The position numbers and the translations under genes were made by a program. Source: the human T2T-CHM13v2.0 reference genome, Homo sapiens. Taken from it: a stretch of DNA of 64,000 bases. Positions 4,899-30,931 of the stretch are shown one piece after another. The stretch's first letter is position 1; each line of letters begins with the position of its first letter. The stretch lies in assembly GCF_009914755.1 (NCBI RefSeq), contig NC_060925.1. The stretch is one strand, 5' to 3'. The notes under the pieces are model-generated. The model did no database searches. It was not told where the DNA came from and saw nothing but the letters and a program-made list of their open reading frames with translations.

Positions 4899-4922
4899 GT
4901 CACAGGATCCCAACGCAGCAAG
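4899..4922 (+). CDS. RYR2: RYR2 alternative 24-nt exon VTGSQRSK (inserted after E3715)
   Basis: tccttaag|GTCACAGGATCCCAACGCAGCAAG|gtaaaa, phase 0, identical to the known 8-aa RyR2 splice insert. Confidence 0.93.
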
Positions 4923-5672
4923 GTAAAACTATATATATGTGTGTATTTGTCTGGGTCTGAGTTTCGGTTTCTTGTGACATTTACCTTTGTTAGACCCAAC
5001 ATCTTGGATTCTTTTGTGAAAAGGAGGTCTTGAAAATCTTTCTACAAGTTTGTAGCTCCAATGCATTTGGTCTCTTCAGGATCCCTTCCTTTGACACAAG
5101 TTTATTCTTCTTGCAATTTAAATGACTCATAATTTGAAATTTTATCCTCCAGCTAACTTTGAGCTGCATACTGTGCTGGGATCAAGGAGTCCAGCCCTTT
5201 GGATGACAAACTTTTTAAGCCAGGGACTTCTCATTTTCGGTGCAATGTTCTGACCTTATCCCTCTTGATGTTTTTCAACACCAGTTTTATTACTTGAAAA
5301 CAGACATGATAAATGGTATTGCTGGTGAGATTGGAAAGAAGCCTGCTTTTCCATTGTGCTAGTAATCACTTCAATTAGTAACTGGAGATTATATTCCATG
5401 ATTTCAATATTGATTTCATTGTTGCATTAAAGGGAAGAACTAGATGACTATTTCTCTCTTAATATTTTGAATACTGGGAACATTTGCTAAAAGAAAACAT
5501 TTTGATATAGAATTACAAAATTACTTACATTAATATGAACCTTGTTAAGCTTATGTTTTATTTTCATAAGGCTATATGGTAGGAAAATCAATCATAAACA
5601 TTCTGTGAAGATGATACCTATAAAGACTTTAGTTTTGTTTGTTTGTTTAAAAAAAAAAAAAGCTTTTTAGGT

Positions 5673-5970
5673 GGCCAGGTGCAGAGGCTTACGCTTGTAA
5701 TCCCAGCACTTTGGGAGGCTGAGGCGGGTGGATCACTTGAGATCAGGAGTTTGAGACCAGCCTGGCCAATGTGGTGAAACCTCATCTCTACTAAAAATAC
5801 AAAAATTAGCCGGGCGTGGTAGTGCACGCCTGTAATCCCAGCTACTGGGGAGGCCGAGGCAGGAGAATCACTTGAACCTGGGAGAAGGAGGTTGCAGTGA
5901 GCCGAGATTGCTCCATTGCACTCCAGCCTGGGCGACAAGAGTGAAACTCCGTCTCAACAACAACAAAAAA
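5673..5970 (+). mobile_element. Alu (AluS-like), sense
   Basis: Full dimer; target-site duplication aaaaaagctttttag on both sides. Confidence 0.97.
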
Positions 5971-6101
5971 GCTTTTTAGTTTGTAAGTGTAAACTATTCT
6001 ACTTTGCCTTCTTTTTTTTAAAAAAAAAAAAAAGTGAAATATTTGCTGCCAAAATGAATTTTAGACTGTCTTGAAGAAACTATTTTAAAATTCCTTTGTA
6101 A

Positions 6102-6401
6102 TTTTTTTTTTTTTTTTTTGAGACAGAGTCTCACTGTGTCAGGCTGGAGTGCAGTGGCAGGATCTCAGCTCACTGCAATCTCCACCTCCTGGGTTCAAAC
6201 AGTTCCCCTGCCTCAGCCTCCCGAGTAGCTAGGACTACAGTGGCGCGCCACCACGCCCGGCTAAGCTAATTTTTTGTATTTTTAGTAGAGACGGGGTTTC
6301 ACCATGTTGGCCACAATGGTCTTTATCTCCTGACCTCATGATCCACCCATCTGGGCCTCCCAAAGTGCTGGGATTACAGTCCTGAGCCACCACGCCCAGC
6401 C
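6102..6401 (-). mobile_element. Alu (AluS-like), antisense
   Basis: T18 then reverse-complement Alu dimer. Confidence 0.96.
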
Positions 6402-27129: not shown

Positions 27130-27560
27130 ATTTAAATTAGAGTGACTATTATGTGCTAGATGGTGTCCTAGGCATTGGAAGCAATTTAGGAGCTCAGTAC
27201 TGTGTAGACAGACTTGTAAACAAATAAATTCAGAACAATGCTTTATGCATATAAAGGAATTTAGGTGGAAGTACTTAGCGGCTGGGATGTTGCGGGGCTG
27301 GGGGAGACGTGTAGTCTGAATTAGGAATCAAGGGGGTGGATAAGGAAGGCAAAGACATTCCAATGCGAGGGAACAGCATATGCAAAGTTCAAGGTACCAA
27401 ACACGGCAGAGAATGGTGACTAAGCTGTTATGAAGGAAAATGATCAGACTAGAGGATGGAAACATAGTACCTGGGAGGCCACGAAGGACCTTCTCTGCCC
27501 TGCCAAGGAATCTACACTTTATCTGAGGCCACAGAGAGCCATTAAATACCACTTAAGTGA
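27130..27560 (-). mobile_element. LINE-2 fragment
   Basis: tatgtgctagatggtgtcctaggcattgga...gagggaacagcatatgcaaag...gagccattaaa, typical L2 3' region antisense; approximate. Confidence 0.55.
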
Positions 27561-28329
27561 TACTATGTGTATTGTTAAATGATCCACCTAGAATTGAGTT
27601 CCTAACGTTTATTGTTCAAATAATGCTTCTGCTAGACTCCACTAACAGTACAATGTAGATTTCCCATTTCTCAGTCATGCTACTAAATAGAAATTGACTC
27701 CTCCAAAGATAGTGACCAGCATTATTATTTCCTTCATGGCAGTGGGAGAGCTCTGAGTTATGCCTAATGATAGATTAGAGGGAATTCTTCAGAGTAGACT
27801 TTTCACAGTTAAAGAAATCCATCTGTTTACCAGGGAAGTAGGATAATTGGAATGGTGCTTTTGAAAAATTACTCATAGGCAACATTGTGTGAGATAGGTA
27901 TCAGAGTCTCAAGGCAGGGAGATCAGTAAGGATGCTGATGAATGGAATGGATGAAAAACAATAAGAATTTCAGTGAGAGTCTTGACAGCTGAGAAGCTTA
28001 GGCTTTGGCTATAAGAGAAACAAGATGCAATCACATTTGAAAGCAAAGGGATTTTTTTTCCGCTCCAGCTAGTTTAATTTGTTTAAGAAGTTAACAGAAT
28101 GTACTTTAATTCTGTTATCCGTGGGACAAACCTGATTTATTTCACATAGTGGTCATTTTCGTTGTCTTGGCATCGGAAATAGGAATGCATTGTATACAAC
28201 GCTGTCAGACTGTTAACTAAATTTTAACAAATGCACTCTGGAATTTATAGAACAAACAACTGTCATACAACCTACAGAAATTCTGTAACTTAGAAATTTA
28301 GGTCATTTGACCTAAGGCTTCACATTTAT

Positions 28330-28975
28330 TTCTTTTGTGCTTTGTAGACTTCAAAGCACTTTTGTTTGATCCAATTCGATTCTCCCAACAGTCCTATGAA
28401 ATGAGGAGTTGAGGAGTTTGTTCATCTCTATATCAACATGATGAAACGAAGGCTCAGAACAGTGAACTGACTAAAGTCATATATCTAGCAATGGTTTTCC
28501 TTTGATTCTTAAATTGATGAAAACAAGCACGAGTTCACAATTATTTAAATAACATATAGTATATGTAATGATAATCAGTCAAAGATTTTATTAGTTACTG
28601 ATGGTAACTTTACAACATTTAGAAACTATAGCACACTGAATTCAGAAAGGCCATATAATACTGAAATTATCTGTTTATTTCCTGTATCTTCCATTAGACT
28701 GTGAACTTCTTCAGGTTCGAGATTATGTTCACCTCACAAGGTGCCTGCCATAGAAGAGTGAATGTTTTTTGAAGTTTACTGGAATCATACTCTTTACCAG
28801 TCGATAGCTATATGACATTGGTTATTTAATTTCTCAGTTGTTCACTGAACCACAAAATGGCATTACATTTAGCTAAGTTACAGGATTATAATAAACCTGA
28901 ATTGAAATGATGAGATAACATATCTAGCACAATGCCTAGCACACTGTAGTCACTAACTAAATATTAACTGTAAGC
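28330..28975. mobile_element. Cluster of MIR/L2 fragments
   Basis: atgaaacgaaggctcagaa...aaagtcatat (MIR -), ttagactgtgaacttctt (L2), ctagcacaatgcctagcaca (MIR +). Confidence 0.5.
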
Positions 28976-30898
28976 TTATTTTTTAAATTTACTTTTTAAT
29001 TGAATTGTAATATAATTGAAGCAGTCATACTTAAGCCGCTTAAACAGCAATATTAAAACTTCCCACATGGAATAAAATACCTGACTTTTCACTATTTTAA
29101 AATATTTGTAGCATTTTTCAGTTTTGGCAAGATGCAGAATCGATCTTAAGGTCCCCTCAAGATCCACAATCAGCATAATTTCCTCTATGGCAGCGGGGTG
29201 CTTTAGAGTCAACTGTATAGATTATAGGGGATCCTTTAATGTGGCCAGTCCTATGCTTCATGAATCACCTTTTACCTGTGCATTATTGTAGATATTGACA
29301 TGACAGGACCTGATAAAGAGAATGTTAGTCTTTTGGAGTCTATTTATCCTAATTCACCAATTGTAGGTAGAATAGTAGCCTTTAAAAATTTGTTAACTTT
29401 ATTAGATCTTTAAAATAGGACTTACTGTTTCACTCGTAGCTTGGTTAAATAAAATCTACCTAGATTATTTCCAAGAAAAAAATGTAATTTTGAGAACATT
29501 TTAATCCATGAAGATGGTGTTCAGGAGATATAAACACAATTAATAAATTCAAATCGCTTTATTCAGCAGCTTGGCATGATGTTTCCATATTTTTTAGTAT
29601 TATTGCCACTGCACCTAATATATTAACCTTTCCACAATTTACAAAAAATTACCACAGATTATGAAGAGCCAGTGACGTAGACAGGGTACGTGTTATCTTT
29701 ATTTTATACAAGAGAAAATGAAGGCGCAAAGAATGAACTCAGAAGCAGCAACAATATTGAAATACCTCTCCCTTTATTACAGTATTAAAAATCTTAAGCC
29801 TCTTATAACAATGAAACCAAAGGGATGTCCTTCACAATATGTACCTTGAGCCCTCAAGCAGCAATTACAAATCATAATTTACCAGTGTAAGAGCACTTTC
29901 AACTACATGTTACTCCATTCCGTTATTTGTTATTGATCTTAGTTTCCATCTTACAATGGAATTTCTTTTGCACACATCACAAAATAGACTGCTGATCCTG
30001 TACCTTCTGCAGACATAAAGCCATCATCCATCTCTGTTACTCTACCACTTATTTGCAGCATGGGCAATGGCAGCATTTTAATCAGATAGGAATGTCTTCA
30101 TTAAGCAACAGTACCCCAGCTTATACCTGGTATCACCTGATGGTAAACGAAGGCCTGACTCGTCCCCTCCCTAACCCCTCCCCTCTTCCCATTGTTCTGC
30201 GATGTACGGTGTGTCCTTATATAAGTGAAATTACTTGTACGTGTTTCGGTATACAGTCAAGAAAATACTGTGTGTGTCGACAATAAATAAAACCTTATGT
30301 TATAAATCATTATGCATTGTGCAGAGCATTTTTAGGTACACAGGTAGATTATATTTATTTCAGTGTTTTTCTGAATACTTTCTAGTAAGGGTTACTTCTT
30401 TCACGAATATATGAACACTTAAAGTGTGTACATGGTTTATTGAATTGATTTGTTTTTTGAAAAAAAAATTGCAGATGGGCTCACAGGGAAAGAATCAATA
30501 AGCCTATGTAATGAACTCATAATATTTTGATTTAAATATCACTTTAAAGACTCTTCTGATTAAGGTGACTCATGAAAATGGAACTAAGTATCACCAATGA
30601 AGAGTTTAGTGCCTTTATTTGCCTAAAACATTCTCCCTTTCGTTTCCTATCCTGTCGTGAATTTAAACACTGAGGAATGGACTTATCAGCCAATTATGGG
30701 AGATTCAACACAATAATGTGCCTATAACACTTAAACTTGCCACGTCTGATTTGCATACGTGGTGATTTTCACATAGTCACCAAATTTCATATCTTGTGGG
30801 CTAACAGGGAAATGAGTACAGTGATTTTATGTACTTTTTTTAATGTTTATATTAGTTTTCAAAATGGTTTTGCTTCCTAACCCTACCATTATATGAAG

Positions 30899-30931
30899 CC
30901 TCTCACTTTGAAAGTCACAGACTGCGGACTG
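30899..30931 (+). CDS. RYR2: Candidate RYR2 33-nt microexon ASHFESHRLRT
   Basis: Consensus branch point cctaac, first downstream AG at 30897-8, near-consensus CTG|gtaagt donor, symmetric phase 1, no stop. Confidence 0.65.

What the first reader, a model, noticed from the sequence alone, without database searches (positions are those of the whole stretch)
4899..30931. Possible combinatorial cassette-exon system tuning two loops of the RyR2 central domain
Seen: introns 80 and 84 are by far the longest complete introns in the window (~14 kb and ~10 kb). Each contains two frame-preserving, stop-free exon-like units whose phase matches the host intron (24 + 57 nt in phase 0; 18 + 33 nt in phase 1). 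Known: the 24-nt exon is a real RyR2 variant, and the intron-84 position is where RYR1 has its ASII exon. Inference: up to 16 isoforms could be made at two insertion points (after E3715 and after S3825), upstream of the Ca2+-activation residues E3848/E3922. The flanking motifs differ (UCUU for RBM20 vs YCAY for NOVA), suggesting a heart-versus-neuron splicing code mostly absent from the canonical 4967-aa model.
Basis: partly seen in the sequence, partly recalled or inferred. Interest (0 to 1): 0.8.

Follow-up and report, generated by a model that had tools for sequence, protein, structure and literature searches.

The report
Three conserved alternative exons in RYR2
Two long introns of the human heart calcium-release channel gene RYR2 hold three small, deeply conserved optional exons, of which this RefSeq table lists only one, while the fourth proposed unit has no comparative support.

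Summary
I located them at 4899-4922 (24 nt), 16365-16421 (57 nt), 24214-24231 (18 nt) and 30899-30931 (33 nt).

Being in-frame and stop-free proves nothing: 697 and 256 such AG..GT units exist in the two introns.

Comparative protein evidence shows three are real exons.
- The 24-nt exon (VTGSQRSK) is the known RBM20-repressed exon.
- The 57-nt unit encodes HDIIKDLRNKFASLGENSL. This is 19/19 identical to an insert at the same junction in songbird and gelada RyR2 models.
- The 18-nt unit encodes VITHER. The same six residues are in shark, coelacanth, fish, reptile, bird and macaque RyR2.

The 18-nt unit is also the RYR2 counterpart of the RYR1 ASII microexon (VINRQN) and a RYR3 microexon (LIVRER). 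All three sit at the same intron position and phase in the human genome.

The 33-nt unit has a strong 5' splice site and a downstream YCAY cluster. None of 277 fetched proteins carries it.

So eight isoforms are supported, not sixteen. The heart-versus-neuron splicing code is untested. The 57- and 18-nt exons are absent from the human RefSeq table supplied.

The parts
3595..3648 (+). RYR2 exon 80 (acidic segment SCHDEEDDDGEEEVKSFE, ends at E3715); the following intron is phase 0
   Evidence: Hub annotation; AG/GT borders and open frame; residue numbering derived
4899..4922 (+). 24-nt cassette exon coding VTGSQRSK; known alternative exon, repressed by RBM20 in heart
   Evidence: RefSeq 'exons of other transcripts' (hub); sequence; VTGSQRSK identical in 75 of 277 fetched proteins: snake, birds, bat, macaque; literature passages in PMC9691496, PMC10874720, PMC7230170
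4923..5122 (+). UCUU-rich flank downstream of the 24-nt exon (8 UCUU at 4970-5109)
   Evidence: 8 in 200 nt, reached by 0.4% of 200-nt windows of the intron; UCUU is given as the RBM20 motif in the abstract of bioRxiv 10.1101/823351 (listing)
16365..16421 (+). 57-nt cassette exon coding HDIIKDLRNKFASLGENSL; not in the human RefSeq table supplied
   Evidence: Borders ttttgttttcgcag| and |gtaacagc; peptide 19/19 identical to the insert at the same junction in songbird RyR2 isoforms and in Theropithecus gelada RyR2 (P0269), 18/19 in chicken, 15/19 in Myotis brandtii, 11/19 in the fish Denticeps
17591..17690 (+). RYR2 exon 81 (starts [13 protein letters not shown]...)
   Evidence: Hub annotation
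22275..22348 (+). RYR2 exon 84 (residues 3802-3825 plus the first base of codon 3826); the following intron is phase 1
24144..24213 (+). Long pyrimidine-rich stretch before the 18-nt microexon (79% C/T over 70 nt), with no UGC in the last 100 nt
24214..24231 (+). 18-nt microexon TCATCACTCATGAGCGTG, inserting VITHER between S3825 and G3826; RYR2 counterpart of RYR1 ASII; not in the human RefSeq table supplied
   Evidence: Borders cccttcctcag| and |gtaattat; VITHER in 115 of 120 listed RyR2 proteins and in two Macaca fascicularis isoforms; same position and phase as RYR1 VINRQN and RYR3 LIVRER in the human genome, DNA identity 11/18 and 12/18
30899..30931 (+). 33-nt unit (would insert ASHFESHRLRT); exon-like but without comparative support
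   Evidence: The only 8/9 match to CAG|GTAAGT among 502 GT sites of the intron; mediocre 3' site (12/18 pyrimidines, AAG) with CTAAC about 25 nt upstream; 0 of 277 proteins with a similar peptide, 0 of 144 RyR2 models with any other insert at this junction
30932..31131 (+). YCAY cluster downstream of the 33-nt unit (12 sites)
   Evidence: reached by 0.6% of intron windows; one of 80 motif tests
32119..32199 (+). RYR2 exon 85; codon 32184-32186 (GAG) is E3848, the equivalent of the RyR1 Ca2+-binding Glu-3893
   Evidence: PMC8408527 passages

Best explanation
Introns 80 and 84 of human RYR2 contain three genuine, evolutionarily conserved, frame-preserving cassette exons.

In intron 80, a 24-nt exon (VTGSQRSK) and a 57-nt exon (HDIIKDLRNKFASLGENSL) can each be spliced in after E3715. 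That places them between the acidic stretch of exon 80 and the helix that starts at EKEMEKQ.

In intron 84, an 18-nt microexon (VITHER) can be spliced in after S3825. It is the RYR2 copy of a microexon that predates the split of RyR1, RyR2 and RyR3. In RYR1 that microexon is called ASII.

The microexon lengthens by six residues the flexible loop that leads into the helix ending in the Ca2+-coordinating glutamate E3848. Independent inclusion gives up to eight isoforms in this part of the central domain.

Shown: the exons exist in the human DNA with intact splice signals and frame, they match orthologous and paralogous inserts, and they lie in loops.

From the literature: RBM20 represses the 24-nt exon in heart.

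Inferred: the 57- and 18-nt exons are spliced in human tissues, and they tune channel regulation.

The fourth unit (33 nt) is most likely a chance pseudo-exon built around one strong decoy 5' splice site.
For: - 18-nt exon, orthologs. All 120 RyR2 proteins listed carry a six-residue insert at this junction: VITHER in 115, VMTHER 2, VINHER 1, VISHER 1, VLTHER 1. They come from shark, coelacanth, gar, teleosts, lizards, crocodile and birds. The query carried the insert, so the list is biased towards it. Macaca fascicularis isoforms X3 and X18 carry VITHER.
- 18-nt exon, paralogs. Rabbit RyR1 chains have six extra residues (VINRQN, 3865-3870) exactly between the exon 84 and exon 85 equivalents. 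Human RYR1 and RYR3 hold 18-nt AG..GT microexons in the same intron and phase, both starting TCAT and ending G.
- 57-nt exon. The human peptide is 19/19 identical to inserts in songbird isoforms and in gelada RyR2. Across 144 RyR2 models covering both junctions, 24 carry that exact peptide and 19 carry HDNIKDLRNKFASLGENSL.
- Exhaustiveness. Alignments of the window-coded protein with 9 non-mammalian and 4 mammalian RyR2 proteins were examined. In the 9 non-mammalian and 3 primate proteins the only exon-sized differences are these three inserts. The Myotis model P0268 has three further insertions of its own.
- Order. Order in the proteins (24-nt product before 57-nt product) matches genomic order.
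- Splice signals. These are as good as those of annotated exons.
- Loop context. In an AlphaFold model of a frog RyR3 fragment (mean pLDDT only 53.9), the microexon residues 131-136 lie in a coil (122-143, pLDDT below 50 for 121-137) before helix 144-159, whose last residue is the Ca2+-site Glu equivalent. Four PDB ryanodine-receptor chains that appear to list only modelled residues (6x32_B, 6x33_B, 6x34_B, 6x35_B) lack 4 to 14 residues here.
- 24-nt exon. RBM20-dependent exclusion is reported in PMC9691496, PMC10874720 and PMC7230170 (passages).
Against: - No human transcript evidence was available. The supplied RefSeq table (18 transcripts) lists only the 24-nt exon.
- No mammal appeared among the 120 proteins. 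Only 4 mammalian models with any of the inserts were found. No mammalian model among those fetched carries the 57- and 18-nt inserts together.
- Most supporting proteins are automatic gene models, and one (Myotis) has other odd insertions.
- Protein searches list only the best 120 of about 2,000 hits and favour proteins that resemble the query. Frequencies of inclusion therefore cannot be read from them.
- The structural context rests on a low-confidence model of a RyR3 fragment and on missing residues in deposited chains.
- No functional effect of the 57- or 18-nt exon on RyR2 is shown anywhere.
- For the 33-nt unit, the best 5' splice site of the intron, a CTAAC branch-point-like motif and a YCAY cluster argue that it might be real after all.
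Confidence: 0.85

Rival explanations
1. All four units are real cassette exons. The 33-nt unit would be a mammal- or primate-specific, NOVA-enhanced neuronal exon, giving up to 16 isoforms.
For: - The 33-nt unit ends at the single best 5' splice-site match of intron 84: 8/9, 1 of 502 GT sites.
- It has CTAAC about 25 nt upstream of its AG.
- It is in phase and stop-free.
- It is followed by 12 YCAY in 200 nt, a count reached by 0.6% of intron windows.
- It is not in a repeat that recurs in the window.
Against: - 0 of 277 fetched proteins has a peptide with 6 or more of 11 matches to ASHFESHRLRT.
- 0 of 144 RyR2 models has any insert other than the six-residue one at this junction.
- Three primate models show only the other three inserts.
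- From base frequencies (my arithmetic, no call), about 0.7 sites with 8/9 or better would be expected by chance among 502 GT sites.
- 5 of 30 GT sites with 6/9 or better in this intron have an equally qualified in-phase unit.
- The 3' site is mediocre (12/18 pyrimidines, A at -3).
- The YCAY result is one of 80 uncorrected tests.
- The searches were biased against proteins with an extra 11-residue insert, so absence is weak evidence.
Confidence: 0.1
2. Only the 24-nt exon is used in humans. The 57- and 18-nt exons are functional in other vertebrates but silent relics in the human gene.
For: They are absent from 18 human RefSeq transcripts (hub table). Nothing on them was found in nine full-text searches. 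The canonical mammalian cardiac protein and all RyR2 chains in the PDB lack them.
Against: Human DNA still codes 19/19 and 6/6 residues identical to birds, with intact AG/GT borders, pyrimidine tracts and frame. Intronic DNA free of constraint would not keep this over the roughly 300 million years (recalled figure) since the split from birds. Macaque and gelada models include them. 18-nt exons are easily missed by read aligners (general knowledge), so absence from RefSeq is weak.
Confidence: 0.05
3. The strong 5' splice site at 30931/30932 is used, if at all, with a different upstream AG. This would give a frame-shifting (poison) exon or a decoy site rather than a coding cassette.
For: An AG at 30854-30855 with a better T-rich tract (ctttttttaatgtttatattag) would give a 76-nt exon, which is not a multiple of 3. 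Other AGs give 11, 17, 110, 115, 124 and 155 nt.
Against: No transcript evidence either way. Purely sequence-based.
Confidence: 0.1

Closest known systems
RYR1 ASII alternative exon (exon 83, Val3865-Asn3870, VINRQN)
   Same: Same intron position (between the exon 84 and exon 85 equivalents), same length (18 nt), same phase 1, related sequence (TCATCA..., V-I-x-basic-E/Q-x), and the same place in the protein, 22-23 residues before the Ca2+-site glutamate (PMC7437583 passages).
   Different: It is in RYR2, codes VITHER, and is not in the human RefSeq table supplied. Its developmental or tissue regulation is unknown. In RYR1 the exon is included in adult muscle and partly skipped in neonatal and myotonic-dystrophy muscle (PMC7437583).
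RYR3 microexon LIVRER (human chromosome 15 contig, C15:31623890-31623907)
   Same: 18 nt, same intron and phase, 12/18 DNA identity to the RYR2 microexon. It is present in some mammalian, frog and fish RyR3 models and absent in others and in the PDB RyR3 chain 9c1e.
   Different: It is a paralog, not the same gene. Its host intron is about 1 kb, against about 10 kb in RYR2.
RYR2 24-bp exon regulated by RBM20
   Same: It is one of the four units. It shares intron 80 and phase 0 with the 57-nt exon, and the two occur together in 42 of 144 RyR2 models.
   Different: It is already described. The 57-nt exon has no comparable UCUU enrichment: 2 upstream and 4 downstream.
Neuronal SRRM3/4-dependent microexon programme
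   Same: Size (3-27 nt), deep conservation, frame preservation, location in a surface loop.
   Different: There is no UGC within 100 nt upstream of the 18-nt exon. RYR2 was not found among microexon rows in the 12 of 18 supplementary files of PMC7935315 that were searched. Neural specificity is untested.

Membership tests
RyR ASII-type microexon | Lies in the intron between the exons coding ...GLGMV(T/N)E(E/D)G(S/T) and GEKV..., i.e. between the RyR1 3864 and 3871 equivalents | tested here: met
   RyR2 3825|3826 aligns with RyR1 3864|3871. The microexon is at 24214-24231 inside that intron.
RyR ASII-type microexon | 18 nt, phase 1, frame-preserving | tested here: met
RyR ASII-type microexon | Sequence related to the RYR1 and RYR3 microexons | tested here: met
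   11/18 and 12/18 DNA identity. Peptides are VITHER, VINRQN and LIVRER. Short sequences, so the identity alone is weak; position and phase carry the argument.
RyR ASII-type microexon | Alternatively included in mRNA | not testable with these tools
   No RNA data. Indirect: RyR2 models with and without it exist in the same species, e.g. Macaca fascicularis, Catharus and Zonotrichia.
RBM20-repressed exon | UCUU clusters in flanking intron | tested here: met
   24-nt exon: 8 downstream (0.4% of windows) and 4 upstream. 57-nt exon: 2 and 4, not distinctive.
RBM20-repressed exon | Inclusion rises when RBM20 is lost or mutated | not testable with these tools
   Reported for the 24-bp exon in PMC9691496, PMC10874720 and PMC7230170 (passages). 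Nothing for the 57-nt exon.
NOVA-regulated exon | YCAY cluster within about 200 nt of the exon | tested here: not met
   18-nt exon: 1 upstream and 2 downstream against a background mean of 3.7. Met only for the unsupported 33-nt unit (12 downstream).
NOVA-regulated exon | NOVA binding (CLIP) and NOVA-dependent inclusion | not testable with these tools
   Search for Ryr2 + Nova2 + exon listed 9 papers; none is about a NOVA-dependent RYR2 exon, judging by title and abstract.
SRRM3/4-dependent neuronal microexon | UGC-containing enhancer close to the 3' splice site | tested here: not met
   No TGC in the 100 nt upstream of 24214

The most novel reading that the evidence does not exclude
Human RYR2 makes isoforms, never studied functionally or structurally, that carry an ancestral ASII-type microexon in the loop feeding the helix of the Ca2+-sensor glutamate E3848. 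They can also carry a 19-residue insert next to the RBM20-controlled 8-residue insert. Their combinations would set Ca2+ sensitivity or partner binding differently in heart, brain, smooth muscle and islets. Variants in these unlisted exons or their splice sites would then be invisible to current arrhythmia (CPVT) gene panels built on the 4967-residue model. In the boldest form the 33-nt unit is a fourth, NOVA-driven member.
Probability: 0.35. Interest if true: 0.7.

Novelty: new member of a known kind. Interest (0 to 1): 0.5.

Why it matters
RYR2 is a major arrhythmia and cardiomyopathy gene. In the PDB search here, every RyR2 chain lacked the inserts, and clinical variant work generally uses the 4967-residue form (general knowledge).

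Two further exons are perfectly conserved from birds or sharks to humans. They sit 133 and 22 residues before a Ca2+-sensing glutamate. This suggests that isoforms not yet studied exist.

It also shows that the ASII microexon is a family-wide, ancient feature of ryanodine receptors rather than a RYR1 peculiarity.

Practical consequences are clear:
- Add the exons to human annotation if junction reads confirm them.
- Include them in variant interpretation.
- Test channels with and without VITHER for Ca2+ activation.

The exons are already present in gene models of other species. They may be in human resources I could not query (GENCODE, VastDB).

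Tried and rejected
- Frame and stop-freeness as evidence: rejected, 697 and 256 such units exist.
- Microexon paper recalled as PMC4390143: not held.
- Supplements of PMC7935315: 12 of 18 files searched. RYR2 appears only in expression tables, RYR1 in one 87-nt event, and there are no RYR2 microexon rows. Files 13-18 were not searched.
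- Review PMC5715910: no word starting 'splic'.
- Nine full-text searches found only the 24-bp exon. A tenth concerned RBM20 and UCUU. The peptide VTGSQRSK occurs in no held paper. Subscription-journal papers are mostly not held, notably the original RyR2 splice-variant and RYR1/RYR3 ASII papers.
- Repeat origin of the units: blastn of each unit with 200-nt flanks against the window gave no non-self hits, except poly-T near the 33-nt unit.
- Rfam scan of 3000-33000: only an Alu-type SRP match at 25945-26061, minus strand.
- Amphipathic-helix reading of the 19-residue insert: hydrophobic moment 0.41-0.52, reached by about 9% of shuffles. Not significant.
- The snake model P0009 was considered for folding. 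It lacks exons 81-84, so a frog RyR3 fragment was folded instead.
- No structure was predicted for RyR2 with the 24- or 57-nt inserts.

Full report
**What was checked first**

The window is human RYR2 (hub note). The 19 annotated exons all have AG/GT borders and join into one open frame. Introns 3649-17590 (13,942 nt) and 22349-32118 (9,770 nt) are the longest of the 18 complete introns; the next is 5,018 nt. The first is phase 0 and the second phase 1. A PDB sequence search places exon 84 at RyR2 residues 3802-3825 and the first full codon of exon 85 at 3827. Counting back puts the end of exon 80 at E3715.

**Locating the units, and chance**

I listed every AG-bounded, GT-followed unit of 9-150 nt that is a multiple of three and stop-free in the intron's phase. 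This gave 697 units in intron 80 and 256 in intron 84. Being frame-preserving and stop-free is therefore no evidence at all.

Among units of the stated lengths, the ones with exon-like signals are these:

| Unit | Coordinates | Peptide |
|---|---|---|
| 24 nt | 4899-4922 | VTGSQRSK |
| 57 nt | 16365-16421 | HDIIKDLRNKFASLGENSL |
| 18 nt | 24214-24231 | VITHER |
| 33 nt | 30899-30931 | ASHFESHRLRT |

The end of the 33-nt unit equals the finding's end coordinate. I used two crude measures: matches to CAG|GTAAGT, and pyrimidines in an 18-nt stretch ending 5 nt before the exon, with no upstream AG. On both measures together, none of the four is equalled by another unit of its pool, except that the 24-nt exon also beats the 57-nt one. 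No trained splice-site model was available.

**The 18-nt unit is an ancient microexon**

Rabbit RyR1 chains align to exon 84 up to residue 3863/3864 and to exon 85 from 3872. RyR1 therefore has six extra residues exactly at this junction. The RyR3 chain 9c1e has none. A search with a turtle RyR1 fragment shows these residues are VINRQN. That is the ASII segment Val3865-Asn3870, coded by RYR1 exon 83 (PMC7437583, passages).

Partial RyR proteins from a large protein search carry related six-residue inserts at the same place:
- RyR3: LIVRER, INVRER or INVSER
- Reptile and bird RyR1: IIRREN or IISREN
- One fish RyR2: VISHER

A second search used that fish protein, restricted to the region of interest, and was opened to full-length proteins. 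It listed 120 RyR2 proteins from shark, coelacanth, gar, teleosts, lizards, crocodile and birds. All have a six-residue insert: VITHER in 115, VMTHER in 2, and VINHER, VISHER and VLTHER in 1 each. The list is biased towards carriers because the query had the insert. The identity of the peptide to the translation of human intronic DNA is what counts.

Two Macaca fascicularis isoforms (X3, X18) also carry VITHER.

In the human genome itself, RYR3 has TCATTGTTCGGGAACGTG at C15:31623890-31623907, and RYR1 has TCATCAATCGCCAGAACG at C19:41338929-41338946. Both are between AG and GT, in the same intron and phase as the RYR2 unit TCATCACTCATGAGCGTG. DNA identities to the RYR2 unit are 12/18 and 11/18.

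The RYR2 unit has a 70-nt stretch of 79% pyrimidines before it and gtaattat after it.

**The 57-nt unit is a conserved exon**

In the same 120 proteins, the junction after ...KSFE was read as follows:

| Insert at junction 80/81 | Proteins |
|---|---|
| VTGSQRSK alone | 26 |
| VTGSQRSK + HDIIKDLRNKFASLGENSL | 10 |
| VTGSQRSK + HDNIKDLRNKFASLGENSL | 4 |
| 19-residue insert alone | 2 |
| Divergent RDIIKGLSLKIASNEENSM (fish Denticeps) | 1 |
| Odd or unclear parses | 3 |
| No insert | 58 |
| Could not be parsed | 16 |

The human unit codes exactly HDIIKDLRNKFASLGENSL.

A third search used a thrush isoform carrying all three inserts and brought in mammals:
- Theropithecus gelada RyR2 has the 19-residue insert, 19/19 identical to human.
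- Myotis brandtii has VTGSQRSK plus HDIIKDLRANFASIGEHSL (15/19).
- The two macaque isoforms have VITHER, with or without VTGSQRSK.

I aligned the window-coded protein with nine non-mammalian RyR2 proteins and with the four mammalian ones. In the nine non-mammalian proteins and the three primate models, the only exon-sized differences are these three inserts. The bat model has further odd insertions of its own. The order of the two inserts in proteins equals their order in the intron.

**Combinations**

Of the 277 fetched proteins, 144 are RyR2-type and cover both junctions. All eight on/off combinations of the three exons occur among them:

| Combination | Models |
|---|---|
| 18 only | 58 |
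| 24 + 18 | 30 |
| 24 + 57 | 28 |
| All three | 14 |
| None | 7 |
| 57 + 18 | 3 |
| 24 only | 2 |
| 57 only | 1 |
| Fish model with an unrelated 25-residue insert | 1 |

These are mostly automatic models from biased searches. They show that annotators see the exons as independent cassettes. They do not give frequencies or linkage on single molecules.

**The 24-nt exon**

It is in RefSeq (hub). VTGSQRSK is identical in 75 fetched proteins, from snake, birds, bat and macaque, and in none of the fish. Passages in PMC9691496, PMC10874720 and PMC7230170 describe a 24-bp RYR2 exon whose inclusion rises when RBM20 is mutated or lost. They also link it to intranuclear distribution of the channel. Its downstream 200 nt hold 8 UCUU, a count reached by 0.4% of windows of the intron. 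UCUU is described as the RBM20 motif in the abstract of bioRxiv 10.1101/823351 (listing).

**The 33-nt unit**

In its favour:
- Its donor is the only 8/9 match to the consensus among 502 GT sites of intron 84.
- There is a CTAAC about 25 nt before its AG.
- 12 YCAY follow within 200 nt, a count reached by 0.6% of windows.

Against it:
- No fetched protein has a similar peptide (0 of 277, threshold 6 of 11 matches).
- No RyR2 model has any other insert at this junction (0 of 144).
- Its acceptor is mediocre: 12/18 pyrimidines, AAG.
- By base frequencies (my arithmetic), about 0.7 donors of this strength are expected by chance in the intron.
- 5 of 30 donors with 6/9 or better in this intron have an equally qualified in-phase unit upstream.
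- The YCAY result is one of 80 uncorrected tests.
- A better acceptor 76 nt upstream would give a frame-shifting exon instead.

The protein searches would rank a model with an extra 11 residues low, so the negative is weak. I put the chance that it is a real coding cassette at about 0.1.

**Where the inserts lie in the protein**

The LLCE glutamate of exon 85 is RyR2 E3848 and RyR1 Glu-3893. [quoted passage not shown] The microexon therefore enters 22 residues before that glutamate.

An AlphaFold model was made of a 991-residue frog RyR3 fragment that contains LIVRER (66-row alignment, mean pLDDT 53.9, so low overall). It puts residues 131-136 in a coil (122-143; pLDDT below 50 for 121-137). 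The coil lies between helix 93-121 and helix 144-159, whose last residue is the glutamate. The acidic segment before the other junction is also unstructured, and a helix starts near EKEMEKQ.

Four PDB chains that appear to list only modelled residues lack 4, 4, 6 and 14 residues across the ASII site (6x33_B, 6x35_B, 6x32_B, 6x34_B). This fits a flexible loop.

The 19-residue insert has hydrophobic residues spaced like an amphipathic helix. The hydrophobic moment is not significant, however: about 9% of shuffles reach it.

**Regulation**

Only RBM20 control of the 24-nt exon is documented. The 18-nt exon has no YCAY enrichment and no UGC within 100 nt upstream. It therefore does not look like a typical NOVA or SRRM4 target; its CU-rich tract would fit PTB-type binding (inference only). 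The proposed heart-versus-neuron code is not supported as stated and remains untested.

**Novelty**

Nine full-text searches found only the 24-bp exon. The library lacks most subscription papers. I could not query GENCODE, VastDB or junction databases, and bioRxiv supplements are closed. The 57- and 18-nt exons are already in gene models of other species, including two primates.

The finding is best filed as new members of a known kind: two human RYR2 cassette exons missing from the supplied RefSeq table. One of them shows that the ASII microexon is shared by all three human ryanodine receptor genes.

**Verdict**
- Observation: partly confirmed.
- Interpretation: partly supported. Three exons and eight isoforms, not four and sixteen; the regulatory code is untested.
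- Interest: 0.5.

Noticed in passing
Proteins P0028, P0045, P0048, P0056, P0074, P0089: Several RyR3 gene models join ...MMAK directly to EKEMEKQK, skipping the acidic exon that corresponds to RYR2 exon 80. This may be real exon skipping in RYR3 or gaps in the models.
   Followed up: no
window 30856-30931: The strong donor at 30931 could pair with a T-rich acceptor at 30855 to give a 76-nt, frame-shifting exon.
   Followed up: partly
window 16238-16270: A strong pyrimidine tract ending in tttag lies 95 nt upstream of the 57-nt exon. Used as acceptor it would give a 151-nt, frame-shifting version (read).
   Followed up: no
G000 C15:31623890-31623907 (locus L004) and PDB 9c1e: Human RYR3 holds the LIVRER microexon with a strong donor (gtaagt). 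The RyR3 chain in PDB entry 9c1e lacks it, so it is probably alternative in RYR3 too.
   Followed up: partly
window 25945-26061, minus strand: The only Rfam match in 3000-33000 is Metazoa_SRP (71.7 bits). It lies inside a stretch the hub lists as repeat-masked, so it is most likely an Alu element.
   Followed up: yes
Protein P0189 (Synchiropus picturatus RyR2 isoform), junction 80/81: It carries a 25-residue cysteine-rich insert (VCACFGCGC...) where other species have the 24- and 57-nt exon products. It could be a fish-specific exon or a model error.
   Followed up: no
outside the window (RYR2 exon 75): A 2025 preprint (10.1101/2025.09.04.674271, passages) reports a QKI-dependent RYR2 exon 75 with a non-canonical GG donor. 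This is another regulated RYR2 exon, unrelated to the units studied here.
   Followed up: no
window 31050-31069: A run of about 20 T lies 120 nt downstream of the 33-nt unit. It produced the only non-self blastn hits of that region.
   Followed up: no
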